64,000 nucleotides of DNA from Alphaproteobacteria bacterium (GTDB lineage Bacteria; Pseudomonadota; Alphaproteobacteria; UBA828). Position 1 is the stretch's first letter, and every line of letters begins with the position of its first letter. Shown here in pieces: positions 434 through 16,403 of this stretch. Location: contig CAXXMU010000006.1 in NCBI GenBank assembly GCA_963667785.2, positions 320,001-384,000 of the forward strand, written 5' to 3'. The notes beneath the pieces are model-generated. The model worked only from the letters and a program-made list of their open reading frames with translations, was not told where the DNA came from and ran no database searches. A program made the translations under genes and the position numbers.

Positions 434-2881
434 ATGGCTGAGGTTGGGGCCGATCCAGGCGGCTTGGGCGCCGGAGCGGCCGCGGGCGGCAGGCCGCTCC
501 AGCCGTCGCTCTGGAGCGCCCTCCCCCACTTCCTGCCGCTTCTGATCTTTCCGCTGATCGTCAACGCCGCGCTGCAGGGCAGCTGGTGGATCGCGGCGCC
601 CTTCGTCTTCTTCATGCTTGCGGGTCCCCTGGATGTCGCGCTCGGCGCGGACGAGAAGAACATGGACCCGGCGAAGACGCCCGAGAGGCGCCTGTTCTGG
701 CACAATCTGCCGGTCTGGGGGTGGGCGTTTCTCTGGCCCCTGACCTTCGCCTTCACGCTCTGGCAAGTCCTCGTCGTCGGCCATCTGGCCCTTTGGGAGA
801 CCGCGTTGATGGCGGTGGTGCTCGCGACCGAGGCCCAGGCGGTCTTCATCGTCGGCCACGAGCTGGTCCATCGGCGGCACGCGTGGGAGCGCCGCCTCGG
901 CGAGTTTCTGCTCGCGTCGGCCTCCTACCCGCACTACGCCACGGAGCACATCTACATTCACCACGCCCTCGTCGGCACGCCGCTTGACGTGGGGTCTGCG
1001 CCCAAGGGCGAGAGCCTCTGGCGCTATTTCCCGCGCGAGCTGGCGAGCAACATCCTCGGCGCCTGGCGCGTCACCCGCGAGCGGCTGGCCCGCCGCCGCC
1101 TGCCCATGTGGCACTACAGCAATCCCTTCTGGCGGTACGGCTTCGAAACCGCTCTCTGGTACGCGCTGATCTACTGGATGGGCGATTGGTGGGCAGTCTT
1201 GATCTACGCCGTACTCTGCCTCGGCGTCGTGCTCTCGATGAAGATCAGCAACTACATCCAGCACTACGGCCTGCGCCGCATCCGCATGCCCAACGGCCGC
1301 TTCGAGAAGGTCCGGCCCCGGCATTCGTGGAGCGCCAGCTGCAGGTTCAGCAACTGGATGTTCTACAACATGCAGCGCCATCCGGATCACCACGCGGTGG
1401 CGAGCCGGCCGTATGCACTGCTGCAGCATCGCGGCGAGGACGAATCGCCGCAGTTGCCTGGGAGCTACGGCAAGATGTTCGGCTTGGCGGTGCGACCGAA
1501 GCGCTGGTTCCGGACCATGGACCCGCTGGTCGATCAGTGGCGCGCCCACTTCTACCCCGAGATCGAGGACTGGAGCCCCTACGACAGCGCGGTTGCCGAA
1601 GCCCGGCCGGAGGCCTTCGACGCCATCGTCGAGATCTTCGGCGCAGCGCCGCGGCTCGCCGGGCTGATCGAGCGAAGCCCGGAGCTGCTCGACAGCCTCA
1701 AAAGCCGGGAGTTTACCGATCTCGATCTTCCGGGCGGCTTCGGGCCGGACCTGGAATTCGAGGCGACCGCCCGCAGTGGCCTCACGCGCCTCTACTGGAC
1801 GCACGAGTTCGGCGTCGCGGAGATGACCGAACAGATCGCCGAAGCGCCCGTTCAGGATGTGAGCGACACGGCGGACTCCGTGCGCAACTGGTCGAACGAC
1901 AAGACCTTCCAGATCGGCATCCACACGCTGCGCGGCAATCTCACCCCGATCGAGGCGGGAACGGCGCTCGCGAATGTCGCGGAGGCCGCGATCGCCGCCG
2001 TGCTCGAGGCGGTCGACGAGGAGATCGCCGAGACCCGCGGCCCGCGCGGCGAGGGAGGGATCGCGGCGGTGGCTCTGGGCGATCTGGCAAGCCGGGACGT
2101 GGCGCCCGGCATGGCGCTGGACCTCCTGTTCGTGCATGAGGGCGGCTCCGCCGGCGAGCAGGAGGCGACGTGCCGCCGCTACCGCGATGCGCTCCGCCGG
2201 CTGTCGCGCGGCAGCCTGCTGTTCGCGGACGCGCCGCGCGGTGGAAAGGGACGGGCCGCGAGAGCGCTCTCGGAGTTCGCCGATGGCGGCTGGAGCGCCG
2301 GATCGGCAGACGCGCTACTGGAGCTGACACGCACGCGCTGCGTCTTCGAATCGGGCGAGAGCGGGATCGGCCGGCGCTTCGACGAGGCGCGGCAGGCGCT
2401 GCTCGGCCGCGGCGACGCGCACGCGGCGCTCGTCGCCGAGCTGCGGGGCGGAGCCGGCGGCACGGCCGCACCGGGGCTTGCCGCGCTCGACGAGATGACC
2501 GGCGGCCTCGACGACGTCGAGCGCACTGCCCGGCTTCTCCAGCTGACCGGCCCCGGAGACGCCGTGGACGATCCGGCGCCCAGGGCGGTGGCAGTCTTCG
2601 AAGTCGCGGGGGCGCATGGCGCGATCCCCGACGACAGCGCGGAGGCCTTGATCGAGGCCGCCACGATGTGGCGCACCCTGCGCGGCATTCTGCGGCTGAT
2701 TGCGGACGACGGCGTCGTGGACGGTGCAGCGGCGACCGGGGTCAAGGCCGCCATTGCGCAGGCCGCCGGGCTGGACGATTTCGACGCGCTCGCCAACACG
2801 ATCCGCGATAGGGCATCCCGCGCCGCAGCCGCGCGCGATGCAGTGAACGGAACGCGTGGCCCCGCTGCCGGCACGAGCTGA
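434..2881 (+). CDS. AlkB-like membrane di-iron hydroxylase/desaturase fused to a degenerate GlnE (GS adenylyltransferase)-like C-terminal half
   Basis: N-terminal TM helices and His boxes HELVH, EHIYIHH, NYIQHYGL, QRHPDHH. C-half has GlnE-like segments IFGAAPRLAGLIERSPELLD, AVALGDLASRDVAPGMALDLLFV and GGLDDVERTARLLQL. Confidence 0.8.
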   Translation: MAEVGADPGGLGAGAAAGGRPLQPSLWSALPHFLPLLIFPLIVNAALQGSWWIAAPFVFFMLAGPLDVALGADEKNMDPAKTPERRLFWHNLPVWGWAFLWPLTFAFTLWQVLVVGHLALWETALMAVVLATEAQAVFIVGHELVHRRHAWERRLGEFLLASASYPHYATEHIYIHHALVGTPLDVGSAPKGESLWRYFPRELASNILGAWRVTRERLARRRLPMWHYSNPFWRYGFETALWYALIYWMGDWWAVLIYAVLCLGVVLSMKISNYIQHYGLRRIRMPNGRFEKVRPRHSWSASCRFSNWMFYNMQRHPDHHAVASRPYALLQHRGEDESPQLPGSYGKMFGLAVRPKRWFRTMDPLVDQWRAHFYPEIEDWSPYDSAVAEARPEAFDAIVEIFGAAPRLAGLIERSPELLDSLKSREFTDLDLPGGFGPDLEFEATARSGLTRLYWTHEFGVAEMTEQIAEAPVQDVSDTADSVRNWSNDKTFQIGIHTLRGNLTPIEAGTALANVAEAAIAAVLEAVDEEIAETRGPRGEGGIAAVALGDLASRDVAPGMALDLLFVHEGGSAGEQEATCRRYRDALRRLSRGSLLFADAPRGGKGRAARALSEFADGGWSAGSADALLELTRTRCVFESGESGIGRRFDEARQALLGRGDAHAALVAELRGGAGGTAAPGLAALDEMTGGLDDVERTARLLQLTGPGDAVDDPAPRAVAVFEVAGAHGAIPDDSAEALIEAATMWRTLRGILRLIADDGVVDGAAATGVKAAIAQAAGLDDFDALANTIRDRASRAAAARDAVNGTRGPAAGTS

Positions 2882-2882
2882 C

Positions 2883-5210
2883 GTGACGGATCGCCCTGCC
2901 CGATCCGGTTCGCGCCGCGGCATCCTGACGACGACATCCGCTGCCGATCACGATCCGATCGAGCGGCCGGCGCTGACGCCGCACCTTGAATTCCGGTCGC
3001 TCGGTGAAGACCGGGCGCTGCTGGTGTCGGACTCCTTCAACACGTTGCTGCACGGGCGGATCCACTGCGATCTGCTGCCCCTTCTCGACGGCCGGCGCGC
3101 GCGGGACGAGATCGTTGCCGCCCTCGCGGGCGTCCATGCGGGCGCCGAGGTGGAGCAGGCGCTGACCTCGCTTGCGGCGAGGGGATACGTCGTCTCCGGC
3201 GCGCATGTCATGGACCGGTCCCGGGCGGCGTTCTGGTCCGCGCTGGGCGCCTCGCCCTGCCGGGCGGAGGAGCGGCTCGGCGCATCGACGGTCGCGGTCG
3301 AGGGCGACGACGGCCGTCTCGCCCGCGGCCTCGGCGCCATGGGCGTGACGGTGGGCGCAGACCGCCCGACGCTCATCGTCGTCGTCTGCGCGGACTATCT
3401 CGACGAGCGGCACGACTCCCTCAATCGCCGCCACCTTGCCGCACGCACGCCCTGGATGCTGGTCCGGCCCGCCGGCCTGCAGCCGCTCTTCGGACCCGTC
3501 TTCCGGCCGGCGGAGCAGGGCCCCTGCTGGGCCTGCCTCGCCTACCGGATGCGCGGCAATCAGGAGGTTCACACCTTCCTGCGCAATCTGGGCGGCGAGG
3601 ATGCGGCCTTCGTGCCCTTCGCCGCCGTGCCTACCGCCCTGGATGCGGTGGCGGGCCTCGCCGCGGCCGAGATCGCCAAGTGGCTGGTCCTGGGAGACGC
3701 GGCGACGCTCCACGAGAGGGCGATCTCGCTGGACCTCGCCAGCCTCGAGAGCGCGCACCATCCGACCATGCGCCGGCCGCAGTGCCCCGTCTGCGGCGAC
3801 GAGGCGCGCCATCGCGCCGACCGGCCGGCGCAGCCGGTGCGCCTCGGCCCGAGCCCGAAGGGCACGCGCAACAGCGGCGGCGTGCGCACCGTCTCGCCGG
3901 AGGAGACCCTCGCCCGTTACCGGCATCTGATCAGCCCGGTGAGCGGGATCGTCACATGGGTGGCGCGCACCACGGCGGAGTCCGACCCCTGGCTGCACGT
4001 CCACTGGGCCGGCAGCAATCTGGCGCTCCGGATCAGGAGCCTGAGCTCGCTCAGGCGCAGCCTGCGGAGCAAGAGCGCGGGCAAGGGGAGCACCGCGCAG
4101 CAGTCCGAGGTGAGCGCGCTCTGCGAGGCGATCGAGCGCTATTGCGGCGCCTTCCACGGCGACGAGATCAGGCGGCCGGCGCGGTTCTCGGATTTTGCGG
4201 CGGCCGGTGGCACGGAGGCGATCCACCCCAACCAGGTTCAGCTCTTCAGCGAACGGCAACTGGACCACGCAGACGAGATCAATGCCCGCGGCCATCCCTA
4301 CAACGTGGTGCCGCCGCGCTTCGATCCCGAGAAGGAGATCGACTGGTCGCCGGTGTGGTCGCTCACGCAAGGCCGGCACCGCTATCTCCCCACATCCATG
4401 CTCTACGGCATGACTCCCGAGCAGCGGGCGCATGCGGACCTCTGGGCGGATTCGAACGGATGCGCCGCCGGCAACACGCTCGAGGAGGCGATCCTGCAGG
4501 GGTTCTACGAGCTGGTGGAGCGCGATGCCGTCGCCATCTGGTGGTACAACCGGCTGCGCCTGCCCGCGGTGGAGCTCGGGAGCTTCGGCGACGACTACCT
4601 GTCCGCCGCGCCCGACTACTACCGGGGCCGCAATCGCGACATGTGGGTGCTGGACGCGACCTCAGACCTCGGCATCCCCGCCTTCGTCGCGCTCTCGCGC
4701 CGCACGGACGTCGAGAACGAGGACATCATCTACGGCGCCGGCGCGCACGCGGACCCGCACATCGCAGCGCTCCGCGCGGTGTGCGAGATGAACCAGTGCC
4801 TGACCTGGGTGCCAAGCCCGGGCGACGGCGACGGCCGCTACGGCGTGGACGATCCCATGTGCCTGTGGTGGTGGAAGAACGCGACGCTCGCGGACCATCC
4901 CTACCTGGCGTCGGCGCCGGATGCCACGCCGCGCCGCCGGGCGGACTATCCGGTTCCCGACGGCGCCGACCTGAGAGAGGACGTGGAGCGTTGCCGCGCG
5001 CTGGTCGAGGCCCGGGGCATGGAGTTCCTCGTTCTCGACCAGACCCGGGCGGACGTCGGGATGCCGGTGGTTCGGGTGATCGTGCCGGGCCTGCGCCACT
5101 TCTGGGAACGCTTCGCGCCGGGGCGGCTCTTCGACGTGCCGGTGGAGATGGGCCGGCGCGAGTCTCCCCTGGCGGAGTCCGACCTCAATCCGGTCCCGGT
5201 CATCGCCTGA
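2883..5210 (+). CDS. srpC: Fused leader-binding/E1-like + YcaO cyclodehydratase (TOMM type, SrpC-like)
   Basis: GP...CWAC and CPVC in the E1-like domain; YcaO ATP-binding motifs EAIER, SNGCAAG, ELVERD; C-terminal PxP (NPVPVIA). GTG start chosen right after the upstream stop (ORF track starts at 2856). Confidence 0.9.
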   Translation: MTDRPARSGSRRGILTTTSAADHDPIERPALTPHLEFRSLGEDRALLVSDSFNTLLHGRIHCDLLPLLDGRRARDEIVAALAGVHAGAEVEQALTSLAARGYVVSGAHVMDRSRAAFWSALGASPCRAEERLGASTVAVEGDDGRLARGLGAMGVTVGADRPTLIVVVCADYLDERHDSLNRRHLAARTPWMLVRPAGLQPLFGPVFRPAEQGPCWACLAYRMRGNQEVHTFLRNLGGEDAAFVPFAAVPTALDAVAGLAAAEIAKWLVLGDAATLHERAISLDLASLESAHHPTMRRPQCPVCGDEARHRADRPAQPVRLGPSPKGTRNSGGVRTVSPEETLARYRHLISPVSGIVTWVARTTAESDPWLHVHWAGSNLALRIRSLSSLRRSLRSKSAGKGSTAQQSEVSALCEAIERYCGAFHGDEIRRPARFSDFAAAGGTEAIHPNQVQLFSERQLDHADEINARGHPYNVVPPRFDPEKEIDWSPVWSLTQGRHRYLPTSMLYGMTPEQRAHADLWADSNGCAAGNTLEEAILQGFYELVERDAVAIWWYNRLRLPAVELGSFGDDYLSAAPDYYRGRNRDMWVLDATSDLGIPAFVALSRRTDVENEDIIYGAGAHADPHIAALRAVCEMNQCLTWVPSPGDGDGRYGVDDPMCLWWWKNATLADHPYLASAPDATPRRRADYPVPDGADLREDVERCRALVEARGMEFLVLDQTRADVGMPVVRVIVPGLRHFWERFAPGRLFDVPVEMGRRESPLAESDLNPVPVIA

Positions 5211-5220
5211 GAGGCCGACA

Positions 5221-6522
5221 ATGAAGAGCCCCATCGACGCAGCAGAATTTCTCGTGTCGAAAGCCGGCGACGACGACGCGTTTCGTGACCGTCTGCGCGC
5301 AAACCCCACGGAAACGATCGAAACGGAGCTGGGCGTCACCCTTGACGAAGGTCATCGGATTCACGTGCACGAAGACAGCTATTCGGCGACCCATCTCGTG
5401 CTTCCGCCGCGCGAGAAATACACTCGAGAAGAACGGGAGGAAGCAAGAGGCGGTGCGGCGTCGCTCGAGTTTCTTCGCAAGACAATGCACGACCCCGCGC
5501 CTCCCCGTCGTCCGCCTGCGCCCGGACGGTCGCGCTCCCGAGAGATCGTTCCTACCGCCGAGGCACTGGCGAGAGAGGCCGAAGAAAGCATCGGTCTCGG
5601 TCTCGAATTCCTGACATCGACCATCGACGAATTCGGAGCCTGGCACTGCATCCGCTTCAACACCGCCGACCCGGACATTCCCCGGCACTTCGAAAGACCC
5701 CCCTTCGTTTCGGCTCTCTGCGTGCTTGCCTTGGAGCGTTGCCGTGACGCGCGCGCAAAGGCCGTGTGCGCTGCCACAAGGGCGTATCTCGTCGGCACGA
5801 TCGAATATCCCGGGCTATGGCGCTACTACCGCCATTTGCCGCAAGACCTCGACAGCACGGCGCTCTGTTCGCTCGTCCTCCGGGCTCATCCCTGGATTTT
5901 GCTGGGCAGAAACGTTCCGAAAATACTGGCCAATCGCGACGAGGAGGGTCGTTTCCTGACATGGCTCCTGGCGGAAGACGAGCCCACCGTCGTGTCGACC
6001 TTTCGCATCGAAGCCGACCCCGTGGTCAATGCGAACGTCATCGCCTATCTCGGCGACCACCCCGAAACCGAACCCGCCCAACGCTGGCTGGAAGCCCTGC
6101 TTGGCGAAGGCGGCGAGACGAATTCGTCCAAATGGTATCCGGATACCGTCGCGATCTACTATGCGATCAGCCGCGCCGTGGTTCGCGTGCAGCCTGCTCT
6201 CGATCGCCTGCGCCCGGTGCTCGCGGAGCGTATCCTGGGTTTGCGCGACGGGGCGGGAGAATTCGGCAACGTTCTCCAGACCGCCCAGGCCGCGTCGGCG
6301 CTCCACAACGTCGGACGCCTCGAAAACGATCACGCCAAACGCCAGGCGGAAACGTTGATCAGTTTGCAAGGTAACGACGGTAGCTGGCCGGAGCTTCTCG
6401 CCTTCGGCGACCAGTCCGTCAAGTGGGGTACGGCAGGCCGGATAGGGCACGGCTCCGAAGCCGTGACGTCCGCGTTCTGCATCGAAGCTCTGGCGCGTCT
6501 CGTCGAGATATTGCGGACTTGA
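5221..6522 (+). CDS. NHLP-leader domain (aa 1-78, ends GG) fused to a class II terpene cyclase / prenyltransferase-squalene-oxidase-repeat domain
   Basis: aa 1-78 align without gaps to the precursor leader. The downstream domain has a DLDST (DxDD-like) motif, a QW-like repeat QGNDGSWP, GAW/GLW repeats and a C-terminal GSEAVTSAFCIEAL helix. Confidence 0.75.
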   Translation: MKSPIDAAEFLVSKAGDDDAFRDRLRANPTETIETELGVTLDEGHRIHVHEDSYSATHLVLPPREKYTREEREEARGGAASLEFLRKTMHDPAPPRRPPAPGRSRSREIVPTAEALAREAEESIGLGLEFLTSTIDEFGAWHCIRFNTADPDIPRHFERPPFVSALCVLALERCRDARAKAVCAATRAYLVGTIEYPGLWRYYRHLPQDLDSTALCSLVLRAHPWILLGRNVPKILANRDEEGRFLTWLLAEDEPTVVSTFRIEADPVVNANVIAYLGDHPETEPAQRWLEALLGEGGETNSSKWYPDTVAIYYAISRAVVRVQPALDRLRPVLAERILGLRDGAGEFGNVLQTAQAASALHNVGRLENDHAKRQAETLISLQGNDGSWPELLAFGDQSVKWGTAGRIGHGSEAVTSAFCIEALARLVEILRT

Positions 6523-6624: not shown

Positions 6625-7743
6625 ATGGACGTTGACGAGGCAGTCACGCTTACCCAGGACCGTCTTGCCCGAGAGGGCGGCACCATGGCCGACCTGCTCG
6701 GGCACTTTCGAAGCGGGATCTCGCCGGTTCTCATCGGCGATCCGGAATGGGAGGACATACTCGACTGCGCCGGGAAACTTCCCATCACCATGGGCGCTCT
6801 GCCGTTCGGCTTTGAACTGCCGCTGCATGCGCGCAGGCCACAGGCCGATTTCGGTGTTTCGCTCGCGAGCGGAACCAGAACGGCGGCGTTTTTCGAGGAA
6901 CGCGCTCGGACCGACCGGTCGGATGGAACCGCGAAAGCGATCATGCAGTTGTTCAGACAAATGGATGACGAAGACTCACCGCTGCGTGACATTGTCGGCC
7001 GCAAGTTGATGCTGGAATTCGACATCGGCTCGGCGCGGGAAGGCAAGACATCGCTTCCGGGCATGTTCCTGCGGCCGGGCGAACGCCCCATCATCGGCGC
7101 CCGTGGTCAGGCGGACGATGTCGCCATGGTGGTCGACGCGCTCGCTTCCTGCGTCGGCTGGGAGGTGACCGACGCCGAGCGGGCGACCGTCGAACGCGTT
7201 TACCTGGCGCAGCCGGGAGAGACGCGCATGGATTCGTTCGGTGTGTTCCCGTCTCGCTCGCGGGCGATCCGCCTGGCGATCATGGGCTTCAGATCGGGGC
7301 AGGAAACATGTTCCTATCTTGAAGACACGGGCTGGCCGGGCCGAATCCAGACCGTCGCCTCCGTGATTGCGCGCTTCAGGGAGCGCGCGAACATCGTCAG
7401 GATCGGGGCGAACATCGACGTGCAGGAAGAGGGTCTCGGTCCAACGCTCGGCCTCACGCTCATCGTCAAGCAGAGATACACGAAGGATTCGCGCTATTGG
7501 CTCGACGGCCTGACCGATTGGGACCCGTTCCTGGCGGCACTGAGCCACGAGGACCTCGTCGTTCCGGAGAAGCTTGCGGCGCTTGCTGACTGGGTCTCGA
7601 AACCGACAACGCTTTTTGCGAAGTCCGGGCAGTATGTACTGCTGCGCGGCATTCACCACATAAAGCTTGTCATATCCGGAAATCGGCTCCGACACGCGAA
7701 AGCCTACGTGTTCATGGTGCTTTCCGGAGCGGTCTCGGCTTAG
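6625..7743 (+). CDS. Hypothetical protein, putative ABBA-fold peptide/aromatic prenyltransferase
   Basis: 372 aa with a good RBS (GAGGA). Motifs FGFELPL...ADFGV and HHIKLV...AKAYVF, alternating alpha/beta pattern, adjacent to the cyclase-like gene. Function is inferred. Confidence 0.5.
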   Translation: MDVDEAVTLTQDRLAREGGTMADLLGHFRSGISPVLIGDPEWEDILDCAGKLPITMGALPFGFELPLHARRPQADFGVSLASGTRTAAFFEERARTDRSDGTAKAIMQLFRQMDDEDSPLRDIVGRKLMLEFDIGSAREGKTSLPGMFLRPGERPIIGARGQADDVAMVVDALASCVGWEVTDAERATVERVYLAQPGETRMDSFGVFPSRSRAIRLAIMGFRSGQETCSYLEDTGWPGRIQTVASVIARFRERANIVRIGANIDVQEEGLGPTLGLTLIVKQRYTKDSRYWLDGLTDWDPFLAALSHEDLVVPEKLAALADWVSKPTTLFAKSGQYVLLRGIHHIKLVISGNRLRHAKAYVFMVLSGAVSA

Positions 7744-7849: not shown

Positions 7850-8101
7850 CTACCAGCAGCAGCACAGCCCGGCCGAGATGGCCTCGAGCTGCTCCTCGCT
7901 GATGTTTGGGTCCGGCGGCAACGCGAGATGCACCGTCTGCATGTCGCTCTCATGGACCTTAATCGTCATCGACTCGGGAATGGTGATGCCCAGCTCCTCG
8001 GAGATGGTGCTCTTCGGATCTGCGAGAAGCTGCTGCCTGAAATCCGCATCCAGAGCAGACTTCTCGACTATCTGCTTCAGCATTTCGTCGCCACTTCTCA
8101 T
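7850..8101 (-). CDS. srpE: NHLP (proteusin) RiPP precursor: 78-aa leader + core LCCCW (SrpE-like)
   Basis: MRSGDEML...DADFRQQLLADPK...EELGITIP...VHE...HLALPP...EEQLEAISAG|LCCCW. AG double-Gly-type site; RBS AGGGAG before the ATG at 8101. Confidence 0.93.
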   Translation of the reverse strand: MRSGDEMLKQIVEKSALDADFRQQLLADPKSTISEELGITIPESMTIKVHESDMQTVHLALPPDPNISEEQLEAISAGLCCCW

Positions 8102-8255: not shown

Positions 8256-10598
8256 TCAGGACTCGGTCGCGGCCCGCTTCGCAGATCGCCGGTCGAGCGC
8301 CGTCAGCAGCGCCGGCAAGAGCGTCAGGTCGGCAACGAGCGCAAAGGCGATGATCAGCGCGGTAAGGACCCCGACCTGCGCGGTCGGAACGAACGGAGAG
8401 AACACGAAGATGAGAAAACCGGCGACGAGCACGACCGTCGTCGTGAACAGGGCACGGCCGCTCGTGTCGAAGGCGTAGCGCACCGCCTCGTCCGGGTCAT
8501 GGCCGAATTCATGCCGCGCACGGCGGTACTTGCTGAGGAAATGCACCGTATCGTCGACGACGATGCCTATGGTCATGGCCACCACGACAGACAGCGAAAG
8601 ACCGACCTGTCCGACCGCCAATCCCCAGACGCCGAAACCCAGCACGGCGGGAAGCAGGTTGGGAACGATGCTTATCAGGCCCAGCCGCAGCGAGCGTAGA
8701 GCGAAGAGGAGAATGGCGGAGATGGCCAGGAGCACGACCAGCGTCCCGATCAGCACCGCCTGGATGTTGCGCTGCCCGATGTAGGCGAACAGCGCCGAGG
8801 GCCCGGTGCTGTTCACGCTGGCGACATGCGGCGCGTTTTCCTTCAGCCAGGTCTCGGCACGTTCGTTCAGTTCGAGCACATCCTTCGAATAGAGGGTCTC
8901 GGTCGATACCGACATGCGCGTGGCCGACCTGGACCGGTCGATCTGGTTGTTCACGTCGAGACCGTCCGGCAGCGAAAGCTCGTAGAGGAGCAGATATTGC
9001 GCTGCCAGCTCCCGGCTTTCCGGAATCCCGTAAGCGCCCGGGTCGTCGCCGTGCATGCTCTTGTTGAGTTGCCGGAAGGTATCGGTGATGACCGACACGT
9101 GGCGTACCGGTGCCTGCTCCCGGTACCAGTCGGCGAAGTTCGCGACGTCGGCGAGGAAAAGCGGATCCGTGGCGCCGCCTTCGCTGGATGCATGCAGCGA
9201 GTATTCGAGCAGGGTATTCCCGCTCAAGCGCTCATCCATGAAATCCGTGTCCTGCCTGAACTCGACGCTCTCGTCGAAGAAATGGACCAGAACGTCATTG
9301 AGATCGTTGCGCGGAATGCCCAGAGCCATCGCCACCACGACCACCAGCCATCCCGCGAACAGCGCCTTCCTGTGGTGCAGCACGAAATCCGCCACGCGGT
9401 TCATCGAGAGCCCGCGGAAGAGCCGGCGCTCCTTCGGCGCACGCATGGGGAGAAGCGAGAGGATGGCCGGCAGGAAGGTGACGGAAAGTATGAACGACGC
9501 GCCAATGCCGATGGCGACGAAGTTGCCGAGATGGCGGTAGGGCGGAACCTCGGAAAAGTTCATGCTCAGGAAGCCGAGCGCCGTCGTGAGACTCGCCAGA
9601 AACACCGGATGCAAGTTGAGCCGGACGGCTTCGACGATGGCATCGCGCTTGGAATCCCCGGCTCGGAGACGCTGCTGCAACGCCACCAGCAGGTGCACGC
9701 AGTTCGCCACGACAATCATCAACACGATGGTGGGGGCCGGGGAGACGGGCGGCGAAAAGGGCAGGCCGAACCACACGCCGAGGCCCACCGACACGAAAAT
9801 CGAGAAGACGATCACCATCCCGGTCGTCGCCACCCCCGCCCAGCGCCGTGTCAGGAGGCCGAGGATCACGGCCATGAGCAGAAGGCTCGCGGGAAGAAAG
9901 ATCATCTGGCTGCTGAGCGAGGCTTCCACGAAGGTCTGGTTGACCATGACCGTCCCGACGACGCGGAGGTCCATGCCCGGGAATCGCTCTTCCGCCTCCG
10001 CCGCGATCGATCTGGCGAATTCGGCAACCTCGGCGACGGCCTCCAGCAGGCCGTCCTCCGGCAGCTCGACGGTGACGTTCACGACGCTGACATCGCCGTT
10101 CAGGGCCAGGATGCTGCCCGCGATGCGCGGGTCGGACAAAGCGATGGCACGGACGTGCTCCCGCGCTTCGGCTCGGGTCAGCTCCTGGGGATCGACGAGG
10201 TCCCGCACGTACAGGTCGTCGCCGTCGGCGGTCGTGTATTGAAAATTGGCGAGTGAGTCGACGCGCCGGGAATAGGGTGTCTGCCAGGCGGCCTTCGTCA
10301 GCCAGACGGCCGCAGAGAGTGCGTCTTGCGAGGTGGCGTCGCCATCGTCCGGCACGATCAGGAAGGCGATGTTCTCGTGCTTGCCGTACGTATTCTCCAG
10401 CTCCTCGAGCGCCAGAAGCTGCGGATTGTCTTCGTCGAAGAAGATTCGATAGTTGGCAGAGAACTCGAGCTGGGTAACGCCCAGCGTCGCGACCGCAACC
10501 ACGAACACCGTGGCCGCGATGACCCACCAGCGAGCCGCAAGCACCCGCTCGGCAAATCGCTTAGCGAATTGCTCTCTTGCTATCTCGGGCTTATCCAC
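8256..10598 (-). CDS. MMPL/RND-family transporter
   Basis: Two repeats of (TM + periplasmic loop + 5 TM); GIVVDDTVHFL and ASLTTALGF motifs. Confidence 0.9.
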   Translation of the reverse strand: MDKPEIAREQFAKRFAERVLAARWWVIAATVFVVAVATLGVTQLEFSANYRIFFDEDNPQLLALEELENTYGKHENIAFLIVPDDGDATSQDALSAAVWLTKAAWQTPYSRRVDSLANFQYTTADGDDLYVRDLVDPQELTRAEAREHVRAIALSDPRIAGSILALNGDVSVVNVTVELPEDGLLEAVAEVAEFARSIAAEAEERFPGMDLRVVGTVMVNQTFVEASLSSQMIFLPASLLLMAVILGLLTRRWAGVATTGMVIVFSIFVSVGLGVWFGLPFSPPVSPAPTIVLMIVVANCVHLLVALQQRLRAGDSKRDAIVEAVRLNLHPVFLASLTTALGFLSMNFSEVPPYRHLGNFVAIGIGASFILSVTFLPAILSLLPMRAPKERRLFRGLSMNRVADFVLHHRKALFAGWLVVVVAMALGIPRNDLNDVLVHFFDESVEFRQDTDFMDERLSGNTLLEYSLHASSEGGATDPLFLADVANFADWYREQAPVRHVSVITDTFRQLNKSMHGDDPGAYGIPESRELAAQYLLLYELSLPDGLDVNNQIDRSRSATRMSVSTETLYSKDVLELNERAETWLKENAPHVASVNSTGPSALFAYIGQRNIQAVLIGTLVVLLAISAILLFALRSLRLGLISIVPNLLPAVLGFGVWGLAVGQVGLSLSVVVAMTIGIVVDDTVHFLSKYRRARHEFGHDPDEAVRYAFDTSGRALFTTTVVLVAGFLIFVFSPFVPTAQVGVLTALIIAFALVADLTLLPALLTALDRRSAKRAATES

Positions 10599-10620
10599 TG
10601 GACTGGCGCCACCTTTCCGC

Positions 10621-13563
10621 TCACGCGATCTGCCTCCTGACCAGTTCCCTGAATACGCCGTCGGCCTCCATGAGTTCGGCGAAGGAGCCGCTCTGCACGA
10701 CTCTTCCGGCCTGCAATACGTAGATTCGGTCGGCCTGTTCCAGCGTGGACAGGCGGTGGGCGATGACGAGCCGGGTGGACGTCAGGGCGGCGAGGTTGCG
10801 CATGACCTTGGCCTGGTTCTCGTTGTCCAGCCAGTTGGTGGCCTCGTCGAACAGCATGATCCGCGGGCTGCCAATGACCGAGCGGGCGATCGTCAGGCGC
10901 TGGCTCTCGCCGCCGGACAGCACCGCCCCGCTGGTGCCGACCATGGTCATCATGCCCATGGGCATGCTCTTGATTTCGGCCTCGAGCTCGGCGATCCGGA
11001 CCGCCGTCCAGACCTCCTCGCTGGCCACGTCGTCGTGGTGGCCGACCAGGTTATCCCAAAGATCCTGTGGATGGAGTCCGACCGATTGCGGTACCGCGCC
11101 GATTCTCCGGCGCACCTGCCTCAGGTTCAGGTGCCTCAGATCGCGGCCGTCGTAATACACCGCGCCGGCGGTAGGCCGGTCTATGCCAAGCGCGAGCCGG
11201 AAGAGCGTGCTCTTGCCGGCCCCGGACTCGCCGGCAATCGCGACGAATTCCCCGGCACGGGCGCGAATGGTGACGTCGTCGAGAACCAGCGGGCCATCAG
11301 GATCGTAACGGAAGGAGATGCGGTCGAACAAAATGTCGCCGCCCAAGTACTCGACCGGCTCTCCTTCGAGCTCGGTTTCAGGAGCCGCGGCGAGCAGCGG
11401 ACGCATCTGATCGAACGCCGGCAGCATGGCGACAATGGTGCCGAAGGACTCTCCGAGGCGGGCGATGGCAGACTGGAACGTGATGAAGACGATGTAGACG
11501 ACGAGAAAATCGCCGACCGGAACGGCCCGATCGCCCACCGCGATCACCGCGAAGAGTAGCACCCCGCCGGCGAGAAACGGGAGCGCGGCACCGAACGCCC
11601 GTGAATGCCCCTCCAGCGCATTCAGCTCCAGCTCCGCCCGCTTCTGCTCGCGATAGTCTCGCGCCCAGATCGCGAACGCCGATCCTTCCGCGTTTTCCAC
11701 ACGCAGCTTGGCGATGCCGCCCACGATCTGGAACAGCCGGCCGGCGACGCGACGCGCCGCACCGATCATCCGCCCATAGGGCGAAATCTGGCGCAACCCG
11801 AGGAGGACGGTGACCAGCAGCGACGCCAGGCTGAAGGCGAGCGCAATGGCTCCGAGAGTCGCATCGTAGAAGAAGATGACGCCGAAGACCGGAAGCAGGA
11901 AAACGATCGACAGCAGGCTGTCGGCGACGATTCCCTGCACACCGTCGCGAAGGGTCTGGAACGTCATTCCCGACATGGCCAGATCGCCGGCCGGATGGCG
12001 GCGCAGGACGCTCGGCGGCAAGCGCATGAGGCGGTCCCACACGGCAGCTTCGACCCGCGACGCCGAGCGCCCCTCGAGCCGCATCATGGCCGTGCTCTGA
12101 GCCATGTGCAGCAGTGCACCGAGCAGGCCGAACACCGCCACCACCACGGCAACAACGTAGAGCGCTCCGACGTTTCCGCCCGTCGCGACGTGACTTGCGA
12201 CGAAGCCAAGCGCGATCGCCGGCAGCAGCTTGATCAGGCCGCCCGGAAGACCGGCAATCACCAGCCGCGCCAGATCCGGGGCCGATCCATGCAGGGCGAT
12301 ACCCAGCAGGTCTGCCGGTTTCACGTTCCCCGACGGCAATGGCCGATAGAACATCCAGGCTTCGTCGCCCAGCGCATCGGCGCGCTCCGCCGTCATCCGA
12401 ACGCTGCGCTTGCTGACCGGGTCGACTTCCCGGTAGCGCCCGAGCATCCCCGGCAATAGCGCTACGGGCCGGCCGTCTTCGGCGCGGAATGCCAGCAACG
12501 CGTTGCTGTCGCCGCGCCACCAGTCGCCCTCGTCCTTGAGCCGCACGCGCCGGGCACGCACGCCCGACGCATCGAGAACGTCAACGAGGCCGATCGGAGA
12601 TTCGGACGGTCCCGAGCGCGCCGGAATCCTGAAATCGATGCCCTCACGGCGGCCGATGATGTGCAGGGCATCCGTGAGGGACGTGTCCTCGACGCTTGCA
12701 TCCCGTTCGATCGGACGATCGTAGATGTTGTAGAGCCGCTGCCGCGCAGCTCGTTCTGCCGTCCGGCGGCTGGTGGTTCGCGCGCGTTCGAGATTCGCCT
12801 CGTCGACCATCGCCAGCCGGCGGTTGAGGCGCTCCAGGGCGAGAGCAACCGCGTGAAAGGAGGCGAGCGCGGGCAGCAGCTTGCCCGTTCGCGCCAGAGC
12901 CTCGGTCGACTTGCCGGAAAGAGTCGCCTCGTCGAACAAGGTGAGCCAGCTCGTCCTCGTCAGCGCTATCACGGCGTCGTGCGGACCGCCGGTCCCGGCA
13001 AGCTCCGACTGGTCGACGACATCCATGAACAGGCTCGTGCCGGGTGGCGGTTGGGATACCCACACCACGCCGCGCCGCACCGACAGCGTGCAGGGGGCGA
13101 GCGCCCGTGTCATGCCGGGCTCGGCCAGCGCGGTCGGACGCGGGAGGCGACCCGCGAAACGCGACAACGTCTCGGTAATGGCGTTCAGCCATGTGTTGGT
13201 CTGCTCCGCCAGCTCCGACGGCCGAACCTCCGACAGCAGGGATGTCGGCAGGCGTCTCAGGAGAGTACCGGGCTGTCCCTTGGCGATCAGGCTGAGCGTC
13301 GTGCCTTCGTCGTCGTCTCCTTCATCCGGTGCGACGCCCGGCACCAGCCATCCCGCGTCGCGGCGCAGCAGGTGCTGCGGCGCCGCCTGCTCGACGCCGT
13401 CCTTGAATTCGACCAGGAACAGATTGACGGCACCCTGATCGATGAACCAGACACTGTCCGGGTCGTCGAGCGTCACGGGCAGATTGCCCGCGCAGGGCAC
13501 CGACGTGCCGGCGCGCTCGGCGAGCGCGGCCAACGAGGTATATGCCGTCCCGGCGCCCTGCAT
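10621..13563 (-). CDS. NHLP bacteriocin-system ABC transporter permease/ATPase (no peptidase)
   Basis: Walker A GESGAGKST, LSGGE, FDEATNWLD. ATG at 13563 overlaps the upstream TGA (TGATG). Confidence 0.88.
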   Translation of the reverse strand: MQGAGTAYTSLAALAERAGTSVPCAGNLPVTLDDPDSVWFIDQGAVNLFLVEFKDGVEQAAPQHLLRRDAGWLVPGVAPDEGDDDEGTTLSLIAKGQPGTLLRRLPTSLLSEVRPSELAEQTNTWLNAITETLSRFAGRLPRPTALAEPGMTRALAPCTLSVRRGVVWVSQPPPGTSLFMDVVDQSELAGTGGPHDAVIALTRTSWLTLFDEATLSGKSTEALARTGKLLPALASFHAVALALERLNRRLAMVDEANLERARTTSRRTAERAARQRLYNIYDRPIERDASVEDTSLTDALHIIGRREGIDFRIPARSGPSESPIGLVDVLDASGVRARRVRLKDEGDWWRGDSNALLAFRAEDGRPVALLPGMLGRYREVDPVSKRSVRMTAERADALGDEAWMFYRPLPSGNVKPADLLGIALHGSAPDLARLVIAGLPGGLIKLLPAIALGFVASHVATGGNVGALYVVAVVVAVFGLLGALLHMAQSTAMMRLEGRSASRVEAAVWDRLMRLPPSVLRRHPAGDLAMSGMTFQTLRDGVQGIVADSLLSIVFLLPVFGVIFFYDATLGAIALAFSLASLLVTVLLGLRQISPYGRMIGAARRVAGRLFQIVGGIAKLRVENAEGSAFAIWARDYREQKRAELELNALEGHSRAFGAALPFLAGGVLLFAVIAVGDRAVPVGDFLVVYIVFITFQSAIARLGESFGTIVAMLPAFDQMRPLLAAAPETELEGEPVEYLGGDILFDRISFRYDPDGPLVLDDVTIRARAGEFVAIAGESGAGKSTLFRLALGIDRPTAGAVYYDGRDLRHLNLRQVRRRIGAVPQSVGLHPQDLWDNLVGHHDDVASEEVWTAVRIAELEAEIKSMPMGMMTMVGTSGAVLSGGESQRLTIARSVIGSPRIMLFDEATNWLDNENQAKVMRNLAALTSTRLVIAHRLSTLEQADRIYVLQAGRVVQSGSFAELMEADGVFRELVRRQIA

Positions 13564-15773: not shown

Positions 15774-15774
15774 T

Positions 15775-16326
15775 TTATGATCGCCTCATTTGCAGGAAGG
15801 CGACCGGCGACTGTCTGCCGAGCTCGATGACGATCCGGCATTCTCTGCTCGCAAGGGATGCAATATCCAAACCGGCATCGAGCGCAATCTCGATTCGGTG
15901 CATCAGGACCGGCGCCGCACCCTCCAACGTCGCCAGCGAGCCGGACAGCGGTACGGCGGAAACGCTCGCGACCTCTCCGTCCCGGGTGGCCGCCTCTCCA
16001 TCCGCCATGACGAGCTCGATCACTGCCGGCAGTCCCGCCTTGATATTCGGCGCGAATTCGCTCTCGATCCAGACGAGGGCCTGCACGGACTCGCTGTCGA
16101 CGCCCAGGCTTTCGCCGGGCTCGATAAGGACGCCGTCTACCGAATGGCTGCGCGCTACATCGCCAAAGACGAGCCATGCTGCCAGCGCAACCAGCAACAG
16201 GGCGATACCCGCGACGAGCAGGCGCTCCCGCGGTGTGGAAATCGTCAGAAGCCGGTCGAGTTGTTCGCGTTCTTCTTTTGCCTTGGCAACTGTATCATGA
16301 AAGGAGTCAAAGGGATTATTGAACAC
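15775..16326 (-). CDS. Short NHLP-system HlyD-like secretion accessory protein
   Basis: EQLDRLLTISTPRERL + TM helix typical of NHLP secretion proteins, then a beta-rich domain. About 183 aa from the GTG at 16326 (GGAGG upstream). Confidence 0.7.
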   Translation of the reverse strand: MFNNPFDSFHDTVAKAKEEREQLDRLLTISTPRERLLVAGIALLLVALAAWLVFGDVARSHSVDGVLIEPGESLGVDSESVQALVWIESEFAPNIKAGLPAVIELVMADGEAATRDGEVASVSAVPLSGSLATLEGAAPVLMHRIEIALDAGLDIASLASRECRIVIELGRQSPVAFLQMRRS

Positions 16327-16403
16327 GACCGCCGTAGCCTCCGCAAAGAAATCGGCCAATTCCAAGAAAAAGCTGATGTGACTTGCGTGGCGCTTTGTCG
16401 AAT

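What the first reader, a model, noticed from the sequence alone, without database searches (positions are those of the whole stretch)
5221..6522. Enzyme carrying its own complete RiPP leader: NHLP leader + GG site fused to a terpene-cyclase-like domain
Seen: aa 1-78 (nt 5221-5454) align without gaps to the 78-aa leader of the precursor at 7850-8101, with 29/78 identities by manual count (FR..L.A.P..TI..ELG.T, I.VHE, HL.LPP). They end in ARGG exactly where the precursor has ISAG. In place of a 5-aa core there is a Pro/Arg-rich linker and a domain of about 320 aa with DLDST and a QW-like repeat. Known: NHLP leaders bind the leader-recognition domains of maturases and are cut at double-Gly sites by C39 transporters. 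Inference: the leader may (a) dock the cyclase onto the YcaO enzyme as a complex, (b) make the enzyme a co-exported PCAT substrate that is released at GG to act in the periplasm, or (c) act as a tethered activator or decoy. I know of no described natural tailoring enzyme built this way.
Basis: partly seen in the sequence, partly recalled or inferred. Interest (0 to 1): 0.92.

Follow-up and report, generated by a model that had tools for sequence, protein, structure and literature searches.

The report
Terpene cyclase carrying a leader-like domain
A gene of a peptide-antibiotic-type cluster that is widespread in sponge bacteria joins a copy of the peptide's own leader to a terpene cyclase, which suggests that the cluster's still unknown product carries a cyclised lipid.

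Summary
ORF 5221-6522 (433 aa) begins with an NHLP-leader-like domain: 29/78 identities to the neighbouring precursor, no gaps, E 5e-15; TIGR03793 E 5e-10, below its cut-off. A class II terpene-cyclase domain follows. The fusion is real: over 1000 full-length homologues, 71 genome loci, and contigs from two studies that bridge the junction.

The cluster is the published sponge 'srp' proteusin cluster (core LCCCW, YcaO, Trp brominase). The leader is not complete. GG occurs in 2 of 58 homologues (xG is invariant), and the second Leu of the L(X)4L motif is an invariant Arg. Cleavage and export are therefore unlikely.

The C-domain matches drimenol synthase (profile E 9e-30; Foldseek E 6e-13) and MstE, and keeps the catalytic Asp (DLDST). 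The neighbouring 372-aa ORF is homologous to the N-terminal half of two ~670-aa proteins whose C-terminal half is this cyclase domain. The two genes thus look like a split prenyltransferase-cyclase maturase, a kind reported in 2024.

A sister cluster holds only this pair, unfused, with Trp-containing NHLP precursors. Likely function: cyclisation of an isoprenoid placed on the core Trp, with the NHLP domain as a permanent docking module. Its partner is unknown. New variant of a known kind.

The parts
5221..5454 (+). NHLP-leader-like domain, aa 1-78. The model shows three helices, a beta-hairpin (VHE...THLVLPP) and a charged helix 69-76. It ends at the invariant G78.
   Evidence: BLASTP against the precursor: 29/78, E 5e-15. 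TIGR03793 E 5.3e-10, 39 bits, below cut-off. Secondary structure from the model. R72 58/58, A75 58/58, G78 58/58. Mean pairwise identity 65% over 63 sequences.
5455..5511 (+). Conserved segment aa 79-97 (AASLEFLRKTMHDPAPPRR), lying where a precursor would have its core. S81 is invariant.
   Evidence: 79% mean pairwise identity; 8 of 19 columns invariant over 63 sequences. S81 58/58.
5512..5556 (+). Variable Pro/Arg-rich linker, aa 98-112.
   Evidence: 31% mean pairwise identity; 0 of 15 columns invariant.
5557..6522 (+). Single-domain class II terpene-cyclase-like alpha/alpha barrel, aa 113-433, plus the stop codon.
   Evidence: AlphaFold2 model with pLDDT 88.2 and pTM 0.80. Foldseek: drimenol synthase/AsDMS E 6e-13, monodomain cyclases 8pak/8paj E 1e-8, MstE E 4e-8. 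Family profile against the PDB: 9mhs_B E 8.9e-30 over profile positions 16-318 of 331.
5845..5859 (+). DLDST motif (aa 209-213), the counterpart of the class II DxDD motif. D211 is the presumed general acid.
   Evidence: Aligns with DLDTT of drimenol synthase; the D333N mutant entry 9m7d reads DLNTT at that place. The wider family consensus is PPDLDDTA. D209, L210, D211 and S212 are invariant in A1.
6625..7743 (+). 372-aa ORF, the putative prenyltransferase ('P') partner of the cyclase.
   Evidence: No Pfam, NCBIfam or PDB sequence hit. An HMM of its family hits the N-terminal ~330 aa of P0247 (E 4e-19) and P0219 (E 1.5e-18), which carry the cyclase domain C-terminally. ESM Atlas lead: 0.90 to a cluster with 75% Trp_DMAT. 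Found in 61 of 71 loci.
7850..8101 (-). SrpE-type NHLP precursor: leader ...ISEEQLEAISAG, core LCCCW.
   Evidence: Translation. TIGR03793 70.7 bits. The same core occurs in 43 of the 45 precursors recovered from the 71 loci (variants LCCSW and LCCCGW). LCCCW is named as the srp core in the bioRxiv passage.
2856..5210 (+). SrpC-type fused leader-binding/YcaO cyclodehydratase; it ends 11 nt before the finding's ATG.
   Evidence: PF02624 E 2e-97; TIGR03882 E 5e-45; TIGR03604 E 6e-82.
434..2881 (+). Fusion of a membrane fatty-acid-desaturase-like domain and a GlnE-like domain; a conserved cluster member.
   Evidence: PF00487 E 1e-25, PF03710 E 3e-7. Found in 45 of 71 loci.
18853..20127 (+). SrpI-type flavin-dependent tryptophan halogenase.
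   Evidence: PF04820 E 2.9e-44. Found in 42 of 71 loci.
8256..16365 (-). Export genes: MMPL/HpnN-like RND (8256-10598), NHLM ABC2 (10621-13674), NHLM ABC1 with C39 peptidase (13563-15773), and a short HlyD-like ORF (15775-16365).
   Evidence: Found in 30, 58, 56 and 50 of 71 loci respectively.

Best explanation
ORF 5221-6522 is a genuine core gene of the sponge-symbiont 'srp' proteusin cluster.

C-terminal domain. The C-terminal 320 aa are a single-domain, acid-initiated (class II) terpene cyclase of the MstE / drimenol-synthase-beta type. The catalytic Asp is kept (D211 in DLDST). This domain is the 'C' half of a split prenyltransferase-cyclase maturase. The 'P' half is the 372-aa ORF at 6625-7743; in other organisms the two are one polypeptide.

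Most likely chemistry (inferred, not shown). P places an isoprenoid on the C-terminal Trp of the SrpE core LCCCW. C then protonates the distal double bond and cyclises the chain. This gives a lipidic, thiazoline-containing, brominated peptide suited to the cluster's RND/LolA-like export genes.

N-terminal domain. The N-terminal 97 aa are an old paralogue of an NHLP precursor. The folded nucleus is kept, but the hydrophobic L(X)4L / -7 determinant is replaced by an invariant Arg, and GG is not conserved. I therefore read it not as a cleavable export leader but as a permanently attached docking module. It would bring the cyclase into the leader-dependent maturation machinery. Its partner is unidentified: it could be the SrpC leader-binding domain, the P enzyme, or SrpE's own leader.

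Origin. The arrangement plausibly arose by read-through fusion of a precursor gene lying directly upstream of the cyclase gene, as in locus L134.
For: Shown:
- The fusion is conserved. 1085 homologues were found, and the best 120 are full-length. There are 71 genome loci from MAGs labelled as many phyla, at 55-75% identity. Contigs bridge the junction.
- Cyclase fold and family. Model pLDDT is 88.2. Foldseek top hits are all class II cyclases. The profile against drimenol synthase gives E 8.9e-30, with DLDST aligned on DLDTT.
- Cluster identity. LCCCW precursor, YcaO, Trp halogenase and NHLM ABC pair are present. Literature passages agree.
- P-C link. The orf372 HMM hits 2 of 12 tested multi-domain relatives at E 4e-19 and 1.5e-18, over their N-terminal ~330 aa, upstream of their cyclase domain. 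orf372 is present in 61 of 71 loci.
- Sister cluster. Loci L080, L090, L094 and L116 (plus short contigs L101-L103) hold only an orf372-like gene, an unfused cyclase, two NHLP precursors and ABC genes. The precursor cores are (Y/F)GMMWG and GDIWSE(A/S)RPG or EDVWTPWRGP. Every precursor found next to this gene pair has a Trp in its short core.
- L134. An 87-aa NHLP ORF, then TAG-ACT-TGA, then the cyclase in the same frame, then an orf372-like gene.
- N-domain under selection. Identity is 65% for aa 1-78 and 79% for aa 79-97, against 31% for the linker. R72, A75, G78 and S81 are each 58/58.

From the literature (passages only). NctPC and ChrPC are prenyltransferase-cyclase fusions with an MstE-like C domain. 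They geranylgeranylate a peptide Trp and cyclise the chain (PMC13290415). SrpC alone is poorly active and gives partly modified SrpE (PMC10286304). The L(X)4L motif is the contact for SrpI and, together with helix alpha1, for a YcaO RRE (PMC10858898, PMC12455567).
Against: - The P assignment is weak on its own. orf372 has no Pfam, NCBIfam or PDB sequence hit. There is only a language-model lead of 0.90 and a first hhalign result of 33% probability. I could not compare it with NctPC itself.
- 10 of the 12 multi-domain relatives tested did not match the orf372 HMM strongly.
- No isoprenyl diphosphate synthase lies in the cluster. The genome's two PF00348 genes are on other contigs.
- DLDST has Ser where most of the family has the last Asp.
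- The sister cluster's cyclase works, presumably, without any NHLP domain, so docking is not intrinsic to the family.
- With the second Leu of L(X)4L gone, binding to an RRE in the published manner is doubtful.
- Published reconstitutions of thiazoline formation and bromination did not need this gene (passages).
Confidence: 0.55

Rival explanations
1. Cleavable leader. The NHLM ABC transporter's C39 domain cuts after G78 and exports the cyclase, which then acts in the periplasm.
For: G78 is invariant (58/58). Position -12 is hydrophobic (F 28, L 20, Y 4, I 1 of 58). Ala at -4 also occurs in the sister cluster's genuine precursors. The cluster has envelope-trafficking genes: MMPL, LolA-like and DUF1302.
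Against: GG occurs in 2 of 58. Position -7 is Arg in 58/58, where precursors have Leu (44/46) or Met. Hydrophobic -4/-7/-12 residues are the established determinants for C39 double-glycine peptidases (recalled; the LahT analogy is in the passage). Residues 79-97 are more conserved than the leader-like part. A folded 36-kDa alpha/alpha barrel is an unusual cargo for this transporter type (inference).
Confidence: 0.06
2. Tethered pseudo-precursor. The module of aa 1-97, a leader plus a conserved 19-aa 'pseudo-core', acts in one of three ways. It may be an allosteric activator. It may be a decoy for a leader-binding enzyme, for example switching on the poorly active SrpC. Or it may itself be modified, for example at the invariant S81, which aligns with the middle Cys of LCCCW.
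For: The conserved segment sits exactly where a core would be, followed by a variable linker. S81 is 58/58. SrpC co-expressed with SrpE alone gave partial products and could not be purified (passage). In the window the gene starts 11 nt after the YcaO stop.
Against: The L(X)4L Leu needed for RRE binding in the one NHLP/YcaO pair studied is an Arg here. In most loci the gene is not next to the YcaO gene but follows ABC2. There is no Cys or Trp in the pseudo-core.
Confidence: 0.17
3. The C-domain is not a working terpene cyclase. It is a cyclase-fold protein used for another purpose, such as lipid or peptide binding, a scaffold, or a different acid-catalysed step on the thiazoline peptide.
For: The last Asp of DxDD is Ser. 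No prenyl-donor gene is in the cluster. The prenyltransferase identity of orf372 is unproven.
Against: The aligned general acid D211 is invariant, and an active enzyme (drimenol synthase) has DLDTT at the same place. The domain is 77% conserved, with 89 of 321 columns invariant. The domain recurs with orf372-like partners, fused or adjacent, next to Trp-containing precursors.
Confidence: 0.15
4. Evolutionary relic. A precursor gene fused to the downstream cyclase gene by loss of its stop codon, and the N-terminal part no longer does anything.
For: The L134 arrangement shows how easily such a fusion could arise: same frame, with two stop codons between. The unfused sister-cluster cyclases suggest the domain is dispensable for catalysis.
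Against: 11 of 78 columns are invariant, with 65% identity across MAGs of many phyla, against 31% for the true linker. The replacement residues (E71, R72, A75) are themselves invariant.
Confidence: 0.05

Closest known systems
srp (sponge-derived RiPP proteusin) gene clusters: SrpE precursor, SrpC YcaO, SrpI brominase (Nguyen et al., JACS 2021)
   Same: The window holds the LCCCW NHLP precursor, a fused leader-binding/YcaO enzyme, a Trp halogenase and the NHLM ABC pair. The cluster is spread over MAGs of many phyla from sponge metagenomes. This matches the passages I saw in bioRxiv 10.1101/2023.06.09.544420 and PMC10286304.
   Different: None of the passages I could read mentions this gene, its leader-like domain or a terpenoid step. 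PMC11832590 speaks only of 'several genes of unknown function'. The primary paper was not held and supplements are closed, so its gene table may name the gene.
Bifunctional prenyltransferase-cyclase RiPP maturases NctPC and ChrPC (Hubrich et al., Chem 2024; seen only through review PMC13290415)
   Same: An MstE-like class II cyclase domain works with a peptide Trp prenyltransferase. Proteins with an orf372-like N-half and this cyclase as the C-half exist (P0219, P0247). Every precursor found next to this gene pair has a Trp in its core.
   Different: Here P and C are separate genes, and C carries an NHLP-leader-like domain at its N-terminus. The pathway also has YcaO, halogenase and desaturase-like enzymes. 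I had no NctPC or ChrPC sequence to compare with.
MstE and the class II domain of drimenol / drimenyl diphosphate synthases (PDB 6sbb, 9mhs, 9m7d, 7xq4)
   Same: Same single alpha/alpha-barrel fold (Foldseek E 6e-13 to 3e-7). Full-length profile match to 9mhs_B at E 8.9e-30. The acid motif aligns: DLDST against DLDTT.
   Different: About 20% sequence identity. Those enzymes act on free meroterpenoid or farnesyl substrates and carry no leader-like domain. The drimenol synthases have an N-terminal HAD domain instead.
NHLP leader peptides (TIGR03793) and the nitrile hydratase alpha subunit
   Same: Same motifs (FR..LL.(D/N)P, VHE, H.VLPP) and the same predicted helices and hairpin.
   Different: Scores below the family cut-off. 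The L(X)4L second Leu is Arg. There is no short core. It is closer to the sister cluster's precursors (42-48%) than to the cognate SrpE (37%).
Engineered leader-fused RiPP enzymes (leader peptide fused to a lanthipeptide synthetase or a cyclodehydratase; recalled, from no call)
   Same: A leader covalently attached to a tailoring enzyme.
   Different: Those are laboratory constructs, in which the leader activates the enzyme it is fused to. Here the fusion is natural, and the leader's known recognition motif is altered.

Membership tests
NHLP leader peptide family (TIGR03793) | HMM score at or above the curated cut-off (50.9 bits) | tested here: not met
   39.0 bits, E 5.3e-10; 42.8 bits in the genome search. 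The true precursor scores 70.7 bits.
NHLP leader peptide family (TIGR03793) | Folded nucleus: three helices plus a hairpin, with the FR..LL..P, VHE and H.VLPP motifs | tested here: met
   Of 25 columns that are >=90% conserved in both families, 15 are identical. The model gives H7-17, H19-27, H29-37, E48-53, E56-60, H69-76.
NHLP leader peptide family (TIGR03793) | L(X)4L recognition motif before the cleavage site | tested here: not met
   Precursors: I/L67 46/46 and L72 44/46. Fused proteins: F/L/Y/I at 67 in 53/58, but R72 in 58/58.
NHLP leader peptide family (TIGR03793) | Double-glycine-type site followed by a short core peptide | tested here: not met
   xG is invariant, but GG occurs in 2/58. 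It is followed by 355 aa of conserved protein.
Class II (protonation-dependent) terpene cyclase, single beta-type domain | alpha/alpha-barrel fold like MstE, drimenol synthase or SHC | tested here: met
   Foldseek: the 36 best-ranked listed chains are all class II cyclases (rank 38 is the first other protein), E 6e-13 to 2e-4. Model pLDDT 88.2.
Class II (protonation-dependent) terpene cyclase, single beta-type domain | General-acid Asp in a DxD(D/T) motif | tested here: met
   D209-L-D211-S-T is invariant in A1 and aligns with DLDTT of drimenol synthase. The last Asp of the classical DxDD is Ser.
Class II (protonation-dependent) terpene cyclase, single beta-type domain | QW-type repeat (Q...DG.W) | tested here: met
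   Q383, D386, G387 and W389 are invariant. G387 is the only invariant column of the 116-sequence family alignment.
Class II (protonation-dependent) terpene cyclase, single beta-type domain | Cyclisation of an isoprenoid substrate | not testable with these tools
   Needs an enzyme assay or heterologous expression.
srp proteusin gene cluster | NHLP precursor with core LCCCW, SrpC-type YcaO, SrpI-type Trp halogenase, NHLM export genes | tested here: met
   Defining features taken from passages.
Prenyltransferase-cyclase (PC) RiPP maturase system | Cyclase domain coupled to a peptide prenyltransferase domain | tested here: inconclusive
   The orf372 family is homologous to the N-half of P0219 and P0247, which have the cyclase as C-half. 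That this domain is a prenyltransferase rests on an Atlas lead of 0.90. There is no PDB or Pfam hit.
Prenyltransferase-cyclase (PC) RiPP maturase system | Trp in the core of the associated precursor | tested here: met
   LCCCW, (Y/F)GMMWG, GDIWSE(A/S)RPG, EDVWTPWRGP, and ...DTRWI in L134.

The most novel reading that the evidence does not exclude
The cyclase recognises its substrate leader-to-leader. Its own NHLP domain would pair with the folded NHLP leader of SrpE, rebuilding the two-repeat core of a nitrile hydratase alpha subunit. No RRE would be involved. NHLP domains seem to come in twos: two TIGR03793-like repeats per NHase alpha gene in this genome (two weak matches per chain); tandem or fused NHLP-Burk pairs (Haft 2010 passage); two precursors per sister cluster; and here one precursor plus one enzyme-borne copy. 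If true, this would be a new mode of substrate recruitment in RiPP biosynthesis. It would also explain why proteusin leaders are folded proteins.
Probability: 0.15. Interest if true: 0.85.

Novelty: new variant of a known kind. Interest (0 to 1): 0.6.

Why it matters
The srp cluster is described as exceptionally abundant in sponge microbiomes, yet its final product and role are still called cryptic (Nat Prod Rep 2025 passage). Only thiazoline formation and Trp bromination have been reconstituted.

Reading two of its 'unknown' core genes as a split prenyltransferase-cyclase pair predicts a cyclised isoprenoid on the core Trp. That makes the product question directly testable by co-expression and mass spectrometry.

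The leader-like domain on the cyclase is, as far as I could read, an undescribed natural way of wiring a tailoring enzyme into a leader-dependent pathway. It may also explain why SrpC behaves poorly when expressed with SrpE alone. For enzyme engineers, it would be a natural precedent for leader-fused maturases.

Tried and rejected
- Complex prediction. SrpC aa 1-400 (alignment A5) with aa 1-110 of the finding (alignment A1) gave 'no answer', score 0.00 in both runs, and the controls were not folded. This counts neither for nor against binding.
- First structure prediction. With 26 close homologues the model was poor (pLDDT 46.7) and was not used. The second, with 116 diverse sequences, was used.
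- orf372. BLASTP against P0188 and P0203 gave nothing. hhalign of a shallow orf372 alignment against six fusion proteins gave only 33% probability. The orf372 profile against the PDB gave 0 hits at E<=10. The search for homologous proteins returned only 78-97% identical relatives among the 120 listed. A more diverse HMM built in a script then gave the strong hits.
- Survey for other NHLP-enzyme fusions. TIGR03793 in 401 genomes of the window's phylum gave 51 genomes with a match. Only the window's own genome scored over the cut-off; the rest look like nitrile hydratase alpha genes of about 200-280 aa open frame. A few longer open frames were not followed up. An Atlas search with aa 1-100 gave only short NHLP-like peptides at scores <=0.81.
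- The listing of cluster members for six fusion proteins gave no organism names.
- The look-up of sequencing runs: no RNA holder listed, so nothing can be said on expression.
- I first considered a CaaX-like Cys prenylation of CCCW by a farnesyltransferase-beta-like toroid. I dropped it when the fold and profile pointed to class II cyclases.
- Paper search was wasted: 'RiPP' matched 'ripple'. The search was too loose.
- Papers. I saw passages only of PMC2887384, PMC12426817, PMC10858898, 10.1101/2023.06.09.544420, PMC12455567, PMC9426513, PMC12537861, PMC10286304, PMC11832590, PMC12858407 and PMC13290415 (for the last, also reference-list parts 1-2). For PMC12715784 I saw only the abstract and outline. 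The abstract of Hubrich et al. 2024 is recalled, not seen. Supplementary Fig. 1 of PMC10858898 (the srp cluster map) could not be seen and may bear on the novelty claim.
Full report
WHAT IS THERE. ORF 5221-6522 on the + strand encodes 433 aa. The neighbouring precursor is on the minus strand, at 7850-8101, with leader ...ISEEQLEAISAG and core LCCCW. The + strand reading of the same coordinates is meaningless. Residues 1-78 of the ORF align without gaps to the precursor's leader: 29/78 identities, E 5e-15. The NHLP leader model TIGR03793 hits aa 9-70 at E 5.3e-10 but only 39 bits, under its cut-off of 50.9. The precursor itself scores 70.7 bits. Pfam gives nothing significant for the remaining 350 aa.

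THE FUSION IS REAL AND OLD. A search of 5.8 billion proteins gave 1085 hits among the 8000 candidates scored. The best 120 are all 71-76% identical, cover 99-100% of the query and are 432-466 aa long. Species-representative genomes gave 71 loci at 55-75% identity. They come from MAGs whose record titles name Delta-, Alpha- and Gammaproteobacteria, Acidobacteriota, Gemmatimonadota, Binatia and others, many from sponge metagenomes. Logan contigs of four runs from two studies cover 5096-6030 or 5000-6057. That span runs from the YcaO gene's end across the leader-like part, the linker and into the cyclase. No insertion or deletion is seen, and two runs carry a strain variant with 29 substitutions. 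An assembly artefact is excluded.

THE CLUSTER IS THE PUBLISHED 'srp' CLUSTER. Around the ORF lie the following genes:
- a fused leader-binding/YcaO enzyme (2856-5210)
- a 372-aa ORF without any family (6625-7743)
- an MMPL/HpnN-like RND transporter
- the NHLM ABC pair, one with a C39 peptidase
- a short HlyD-like ORF
- LolA-like and DUF1302 genes
- a tryptophan halogenase (18853-20127)
- a fatty-acid-desaturase/GlnE-like fusion (434-2881)

Passages in a 2023 preprint describe srp genes as ubiquitous in sponges and characterised by an LCCCW core, bromination of the terminal Trp and azoline formation. A 2023 Biochemistry paper states that SrpC turns the three Cys into thiazolines and SrpI brominates the Trp. 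It also states that SrpC is poorly active, could not be purified, and gave partly modified products when co-expressed with SrpE alone. A 2025 review calls the cluster cryptic and its role unclear. Another paper notes 'several genes of unknown function' in such clusters. I could not read the primary paper.

tblastn of the window's proteins against the 71 loci shows what travels with the finding (hits covering more than half the query, out of 71):
- orf372: 61
- ABC2: 58
- ABC1: 56
- YcaO: 55
- short HlyD-like: 50
- desaturase/GlnE: 45
- halogenase: 42
- MMPL: 30

Gene order varies. Usually the finding follows ABC2 and precedes the desaturase gene; in the window it follows the YcaO gene.

THE C-TERMINAL DOMAIN. 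A representative-level search showed many unfused 300-340-aa relatives of aa ~113-430 at 30-48% identity. It also showed fusions to UbiA, P450 and sulfotransferase domains. The consensus of a 116-sequence alignment reads PPDLDDTA at the place of DLDST. With that alignment AlphaFold2 gave a good model, with pLDDT 88.2 and pTM 0.80; a first model from 26 close sequences had failed. Foldseek against the PDB ranks only class II terpene cyclases at the top:
- drimenol synthase / AsDMS: E 6e-13
- monodomain cyclases 8pak/8paj: E 1e-8
- MstE: E 4e-8
- drimenyl diphosphate synthase
- squalene-hopene cyclase

The family profile matches drimenol synthase's class II domain end to end, at E 8.9e-30. In that alignment DLDST lies on DLDTT, and the deposited D333N mutant reads DLNTT there. 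D211 is therefore the presumed general acid, and a non-Asp fourth residue has a precedent in an active enzyme. D209, L210, D211, S212 and the QW-like Q383/D386/G387/W389 are invariant.

THE PARTNER GENE. orf372 has no Pfam, NCBIfam or PDB sequence match. Protein-language-model features place it near clusters of ABBA-type aromatic prenyltransferases. The score is 0.90 to a cluster with 75% Trp_DMAT, which is a lead only.

An HMM built from 19 family members (the window, 12 srp loci, 5 sister-cluster loci and L134) was run against 12 multi-domain relatives of the cyclase. It hit the N-terminal ~330 aa of P0247 (E 4e-19) and P0219 (E 1.5e-18). A third, P0182, hit only weakly at E 0.003, and the other nine not at all. 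Both strong hits carry the cyclase domain in their C-terminal half. So the two srp genes are one polypeptide elsewhere.

A 2026 review describes exactly such enzymes. NctPC is an ABBA-fold prenyltransferase fused to an MstE-like cyclase. It geranylgeranylates a peptide Trp and cyclises the chain. ChrPC is similar, with another prenyltransferase fold. The source is Hubrich et al. 2024, which I could not read.

RELATED CLUSTERS. A metagenome scan with unfused relatives returned many srp loci and a sister cluster (L080, L090, L094, L116; short pieces L101-L103). The sister cluster holds:
- an orf372-like gene (30% identity)
- an unfused cyclase (about 44%)
- two NHLP precursors with GG sites and cores (Y/F)GMMWG and GDIWSE(A/S)RPG or EDVWTPWRGP
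- the two ABC genes

There was no YcaO, halogenase or desaturase hit in up to 14.7 kb. Every precursor found next to this gene pair thus has a Trp in a short core. That fits a Trp-directed prenylation and cyclisation.

In L134, a more distant relative at 30% identity, an 87-aa NHLP ORF ending ...DTRWI is followed by TAG-ACT-TGA. Then comes the cyclase gene in the same frame, then an orf372-like gene. This is the window's order, NHLP - cyclase - orf372, with stop codons still in place. It is a plausible picture of how the fusion arose.

THE N-TERMINAL DOMAIN. I compared 46 SrpE sequences with 58-60 fused N-domains column by column.
- Of 25 columns that are at least 90% conserved in both families, 15 are identical. 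These are the nucleus motifs.
- The precursor's I67-T-E-E-Q-L72 motif, followed by E-A-I75-S-A-G78, becomes [F/L]67-S-x-A-E-R72 followed by E-A-A75-[R/K]-[T/A]-G78.
- R72 is 58/58, A75 58/58, G78 58/58. GG occurs in 2/58.

Published work shows the two Leu of L(X)4L are the contact for SrpI, and also for a YcaO RRE. The RRE in addition needs helix alpha1 of the folded nucleus (passages). The enzyme-borne copy therefore keeps the nucleus but has lost half of the known recognition and cleavage motif.

Conservation over 63 sequences, as mean pairwise identity, is:
- aa 1-78: 65%
- aa 79-97: 79%
- aa 98-112: 31%
- cyclase domain: 77%

The module under selection is thus aa 1-97, a leader plus a conserved 'pseudo-core' with invariant S81, tied to the cyclase by a variable linker. 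The N-domain is nearer to the sister cluster's precursors (42-48%) than to SrpE (37%), so it is not a recent copy of SrpE.

HOW IT MOST LIKELY WORKS. Shown: homology, conservation, gene linkage and fusion elsewhere. Inferred: orf372 prenylates the core Trp of SrpE, and this protein's C-domain cyclises the chain by protonation from D211. The lipidic product fits the desaturase-like enzyme and the RND, LolA-like and DUF1302 genes. The N-terminal module is not removed but docks the cyclase into the leader-dependent machinery. I put 0.55 on this package: about 0.8 on the cyclase role and about 0.5 on docking.

Cleavage and export I put at 0.06, a tethered pseudo-substrate or activator at 0.17, a non-cyclase role of the C-domain at 0.15, and a functionless relic at 0.05.

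The boldest reading not excluded is leader-to-leader pairing with SrpE, rebuilding a nitrile-hydratase-alpha-like two-repeat core. It is suggested by NHLP units occurring in pairs. I put it at 0.15.

LIMITS. The one complex prediction gave no verdict. No isoprenyl diphosphate synthase is in the cluster. The two primary papers and all supplements were out of reach.

VERDICT. The cluster and the enzyme class are known. The natural fusion of a leader-like domain to the cyclase, and the reading of two unknown srp core genes as a split prenyltransferase-cyclase pair, are new as far as I could check. New variant of a known kind; interest 0.6.

Noticed in passing
window 434-2881 (+): An 815-aa fusion of a membrane fatty-acid-desaturase/alkane-hydroxylase-like domain (PF00487) with a GlnE-like nucleotidyltransferase region. 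It is conserved in 45 of 71 srp loci. Its role in the pathway is unknown; it may oxidise a lipid moiety.
   Followed up: partly
L080 6922-14741; also L090, L094, L116, L101-L103: A sister cluster in sponge-type metagenome contigs. It holds an orf372-like gene, an unfused cyclase, two NHLP precursors with cores (Y/F)GMMWG and GDIWSE(A/S)RPG or EDVWTPWRGP, and the NHLM ABC pair. No YcaO or halogenase was hit in the available flanks.
   Followed up: partly
L134 362-1630: An 87-aa NHLP ORF and a cyclase gene lie in the same reading frame, separated only by TAG-ACT-TGA, and are followed by an orf372-like gene. This may be the unfused ancestor state, or a precursor ending ...DTRWI.
   Followed up: partly
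G000:C2:768091-768486 and G000:C6:156461-156814 (own genome, outside the window): Two nitrile-hydratase-alpha-like genes each give two separate TIGR03793-like matches in one open frame of 210-214 aa. The alpha subunit thus seems to contain two tandem NHLP-like repeats.
   Followed up: no
window 15775-16365 (-): The HlyD-like ORF is only 196 aa and matches just positions 6-71 of the 421-position TIGR03794 model. It is conserved at this length in 50 of 71 loci, so it is a short form and not a broken gene.
   Followed up: partly
window 13563-13674: As listed, the ABC1 gene's end and the longest ABC2 ORF overlap by 112 nt. The ABC2 start is probably further downstream.
   Followed up: no
L080 3600-6600: A long stretch translates in several frames into repeated peptide words (GFPAHAGMDP, VSPPTRGWT, FPRPRGDGP). 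This points to a dense array of short DNA repeats beside the sister cluster.
   Followed up: no
window 16615-18713 (+): LolA-like (PF17131) and DUF1302 genes lie beside the MMPL-type RND gene. The set is present in only 13-30 of the 71 loci and looks like an optional hydrophobe-export module of the cluster.
   Followed up: no
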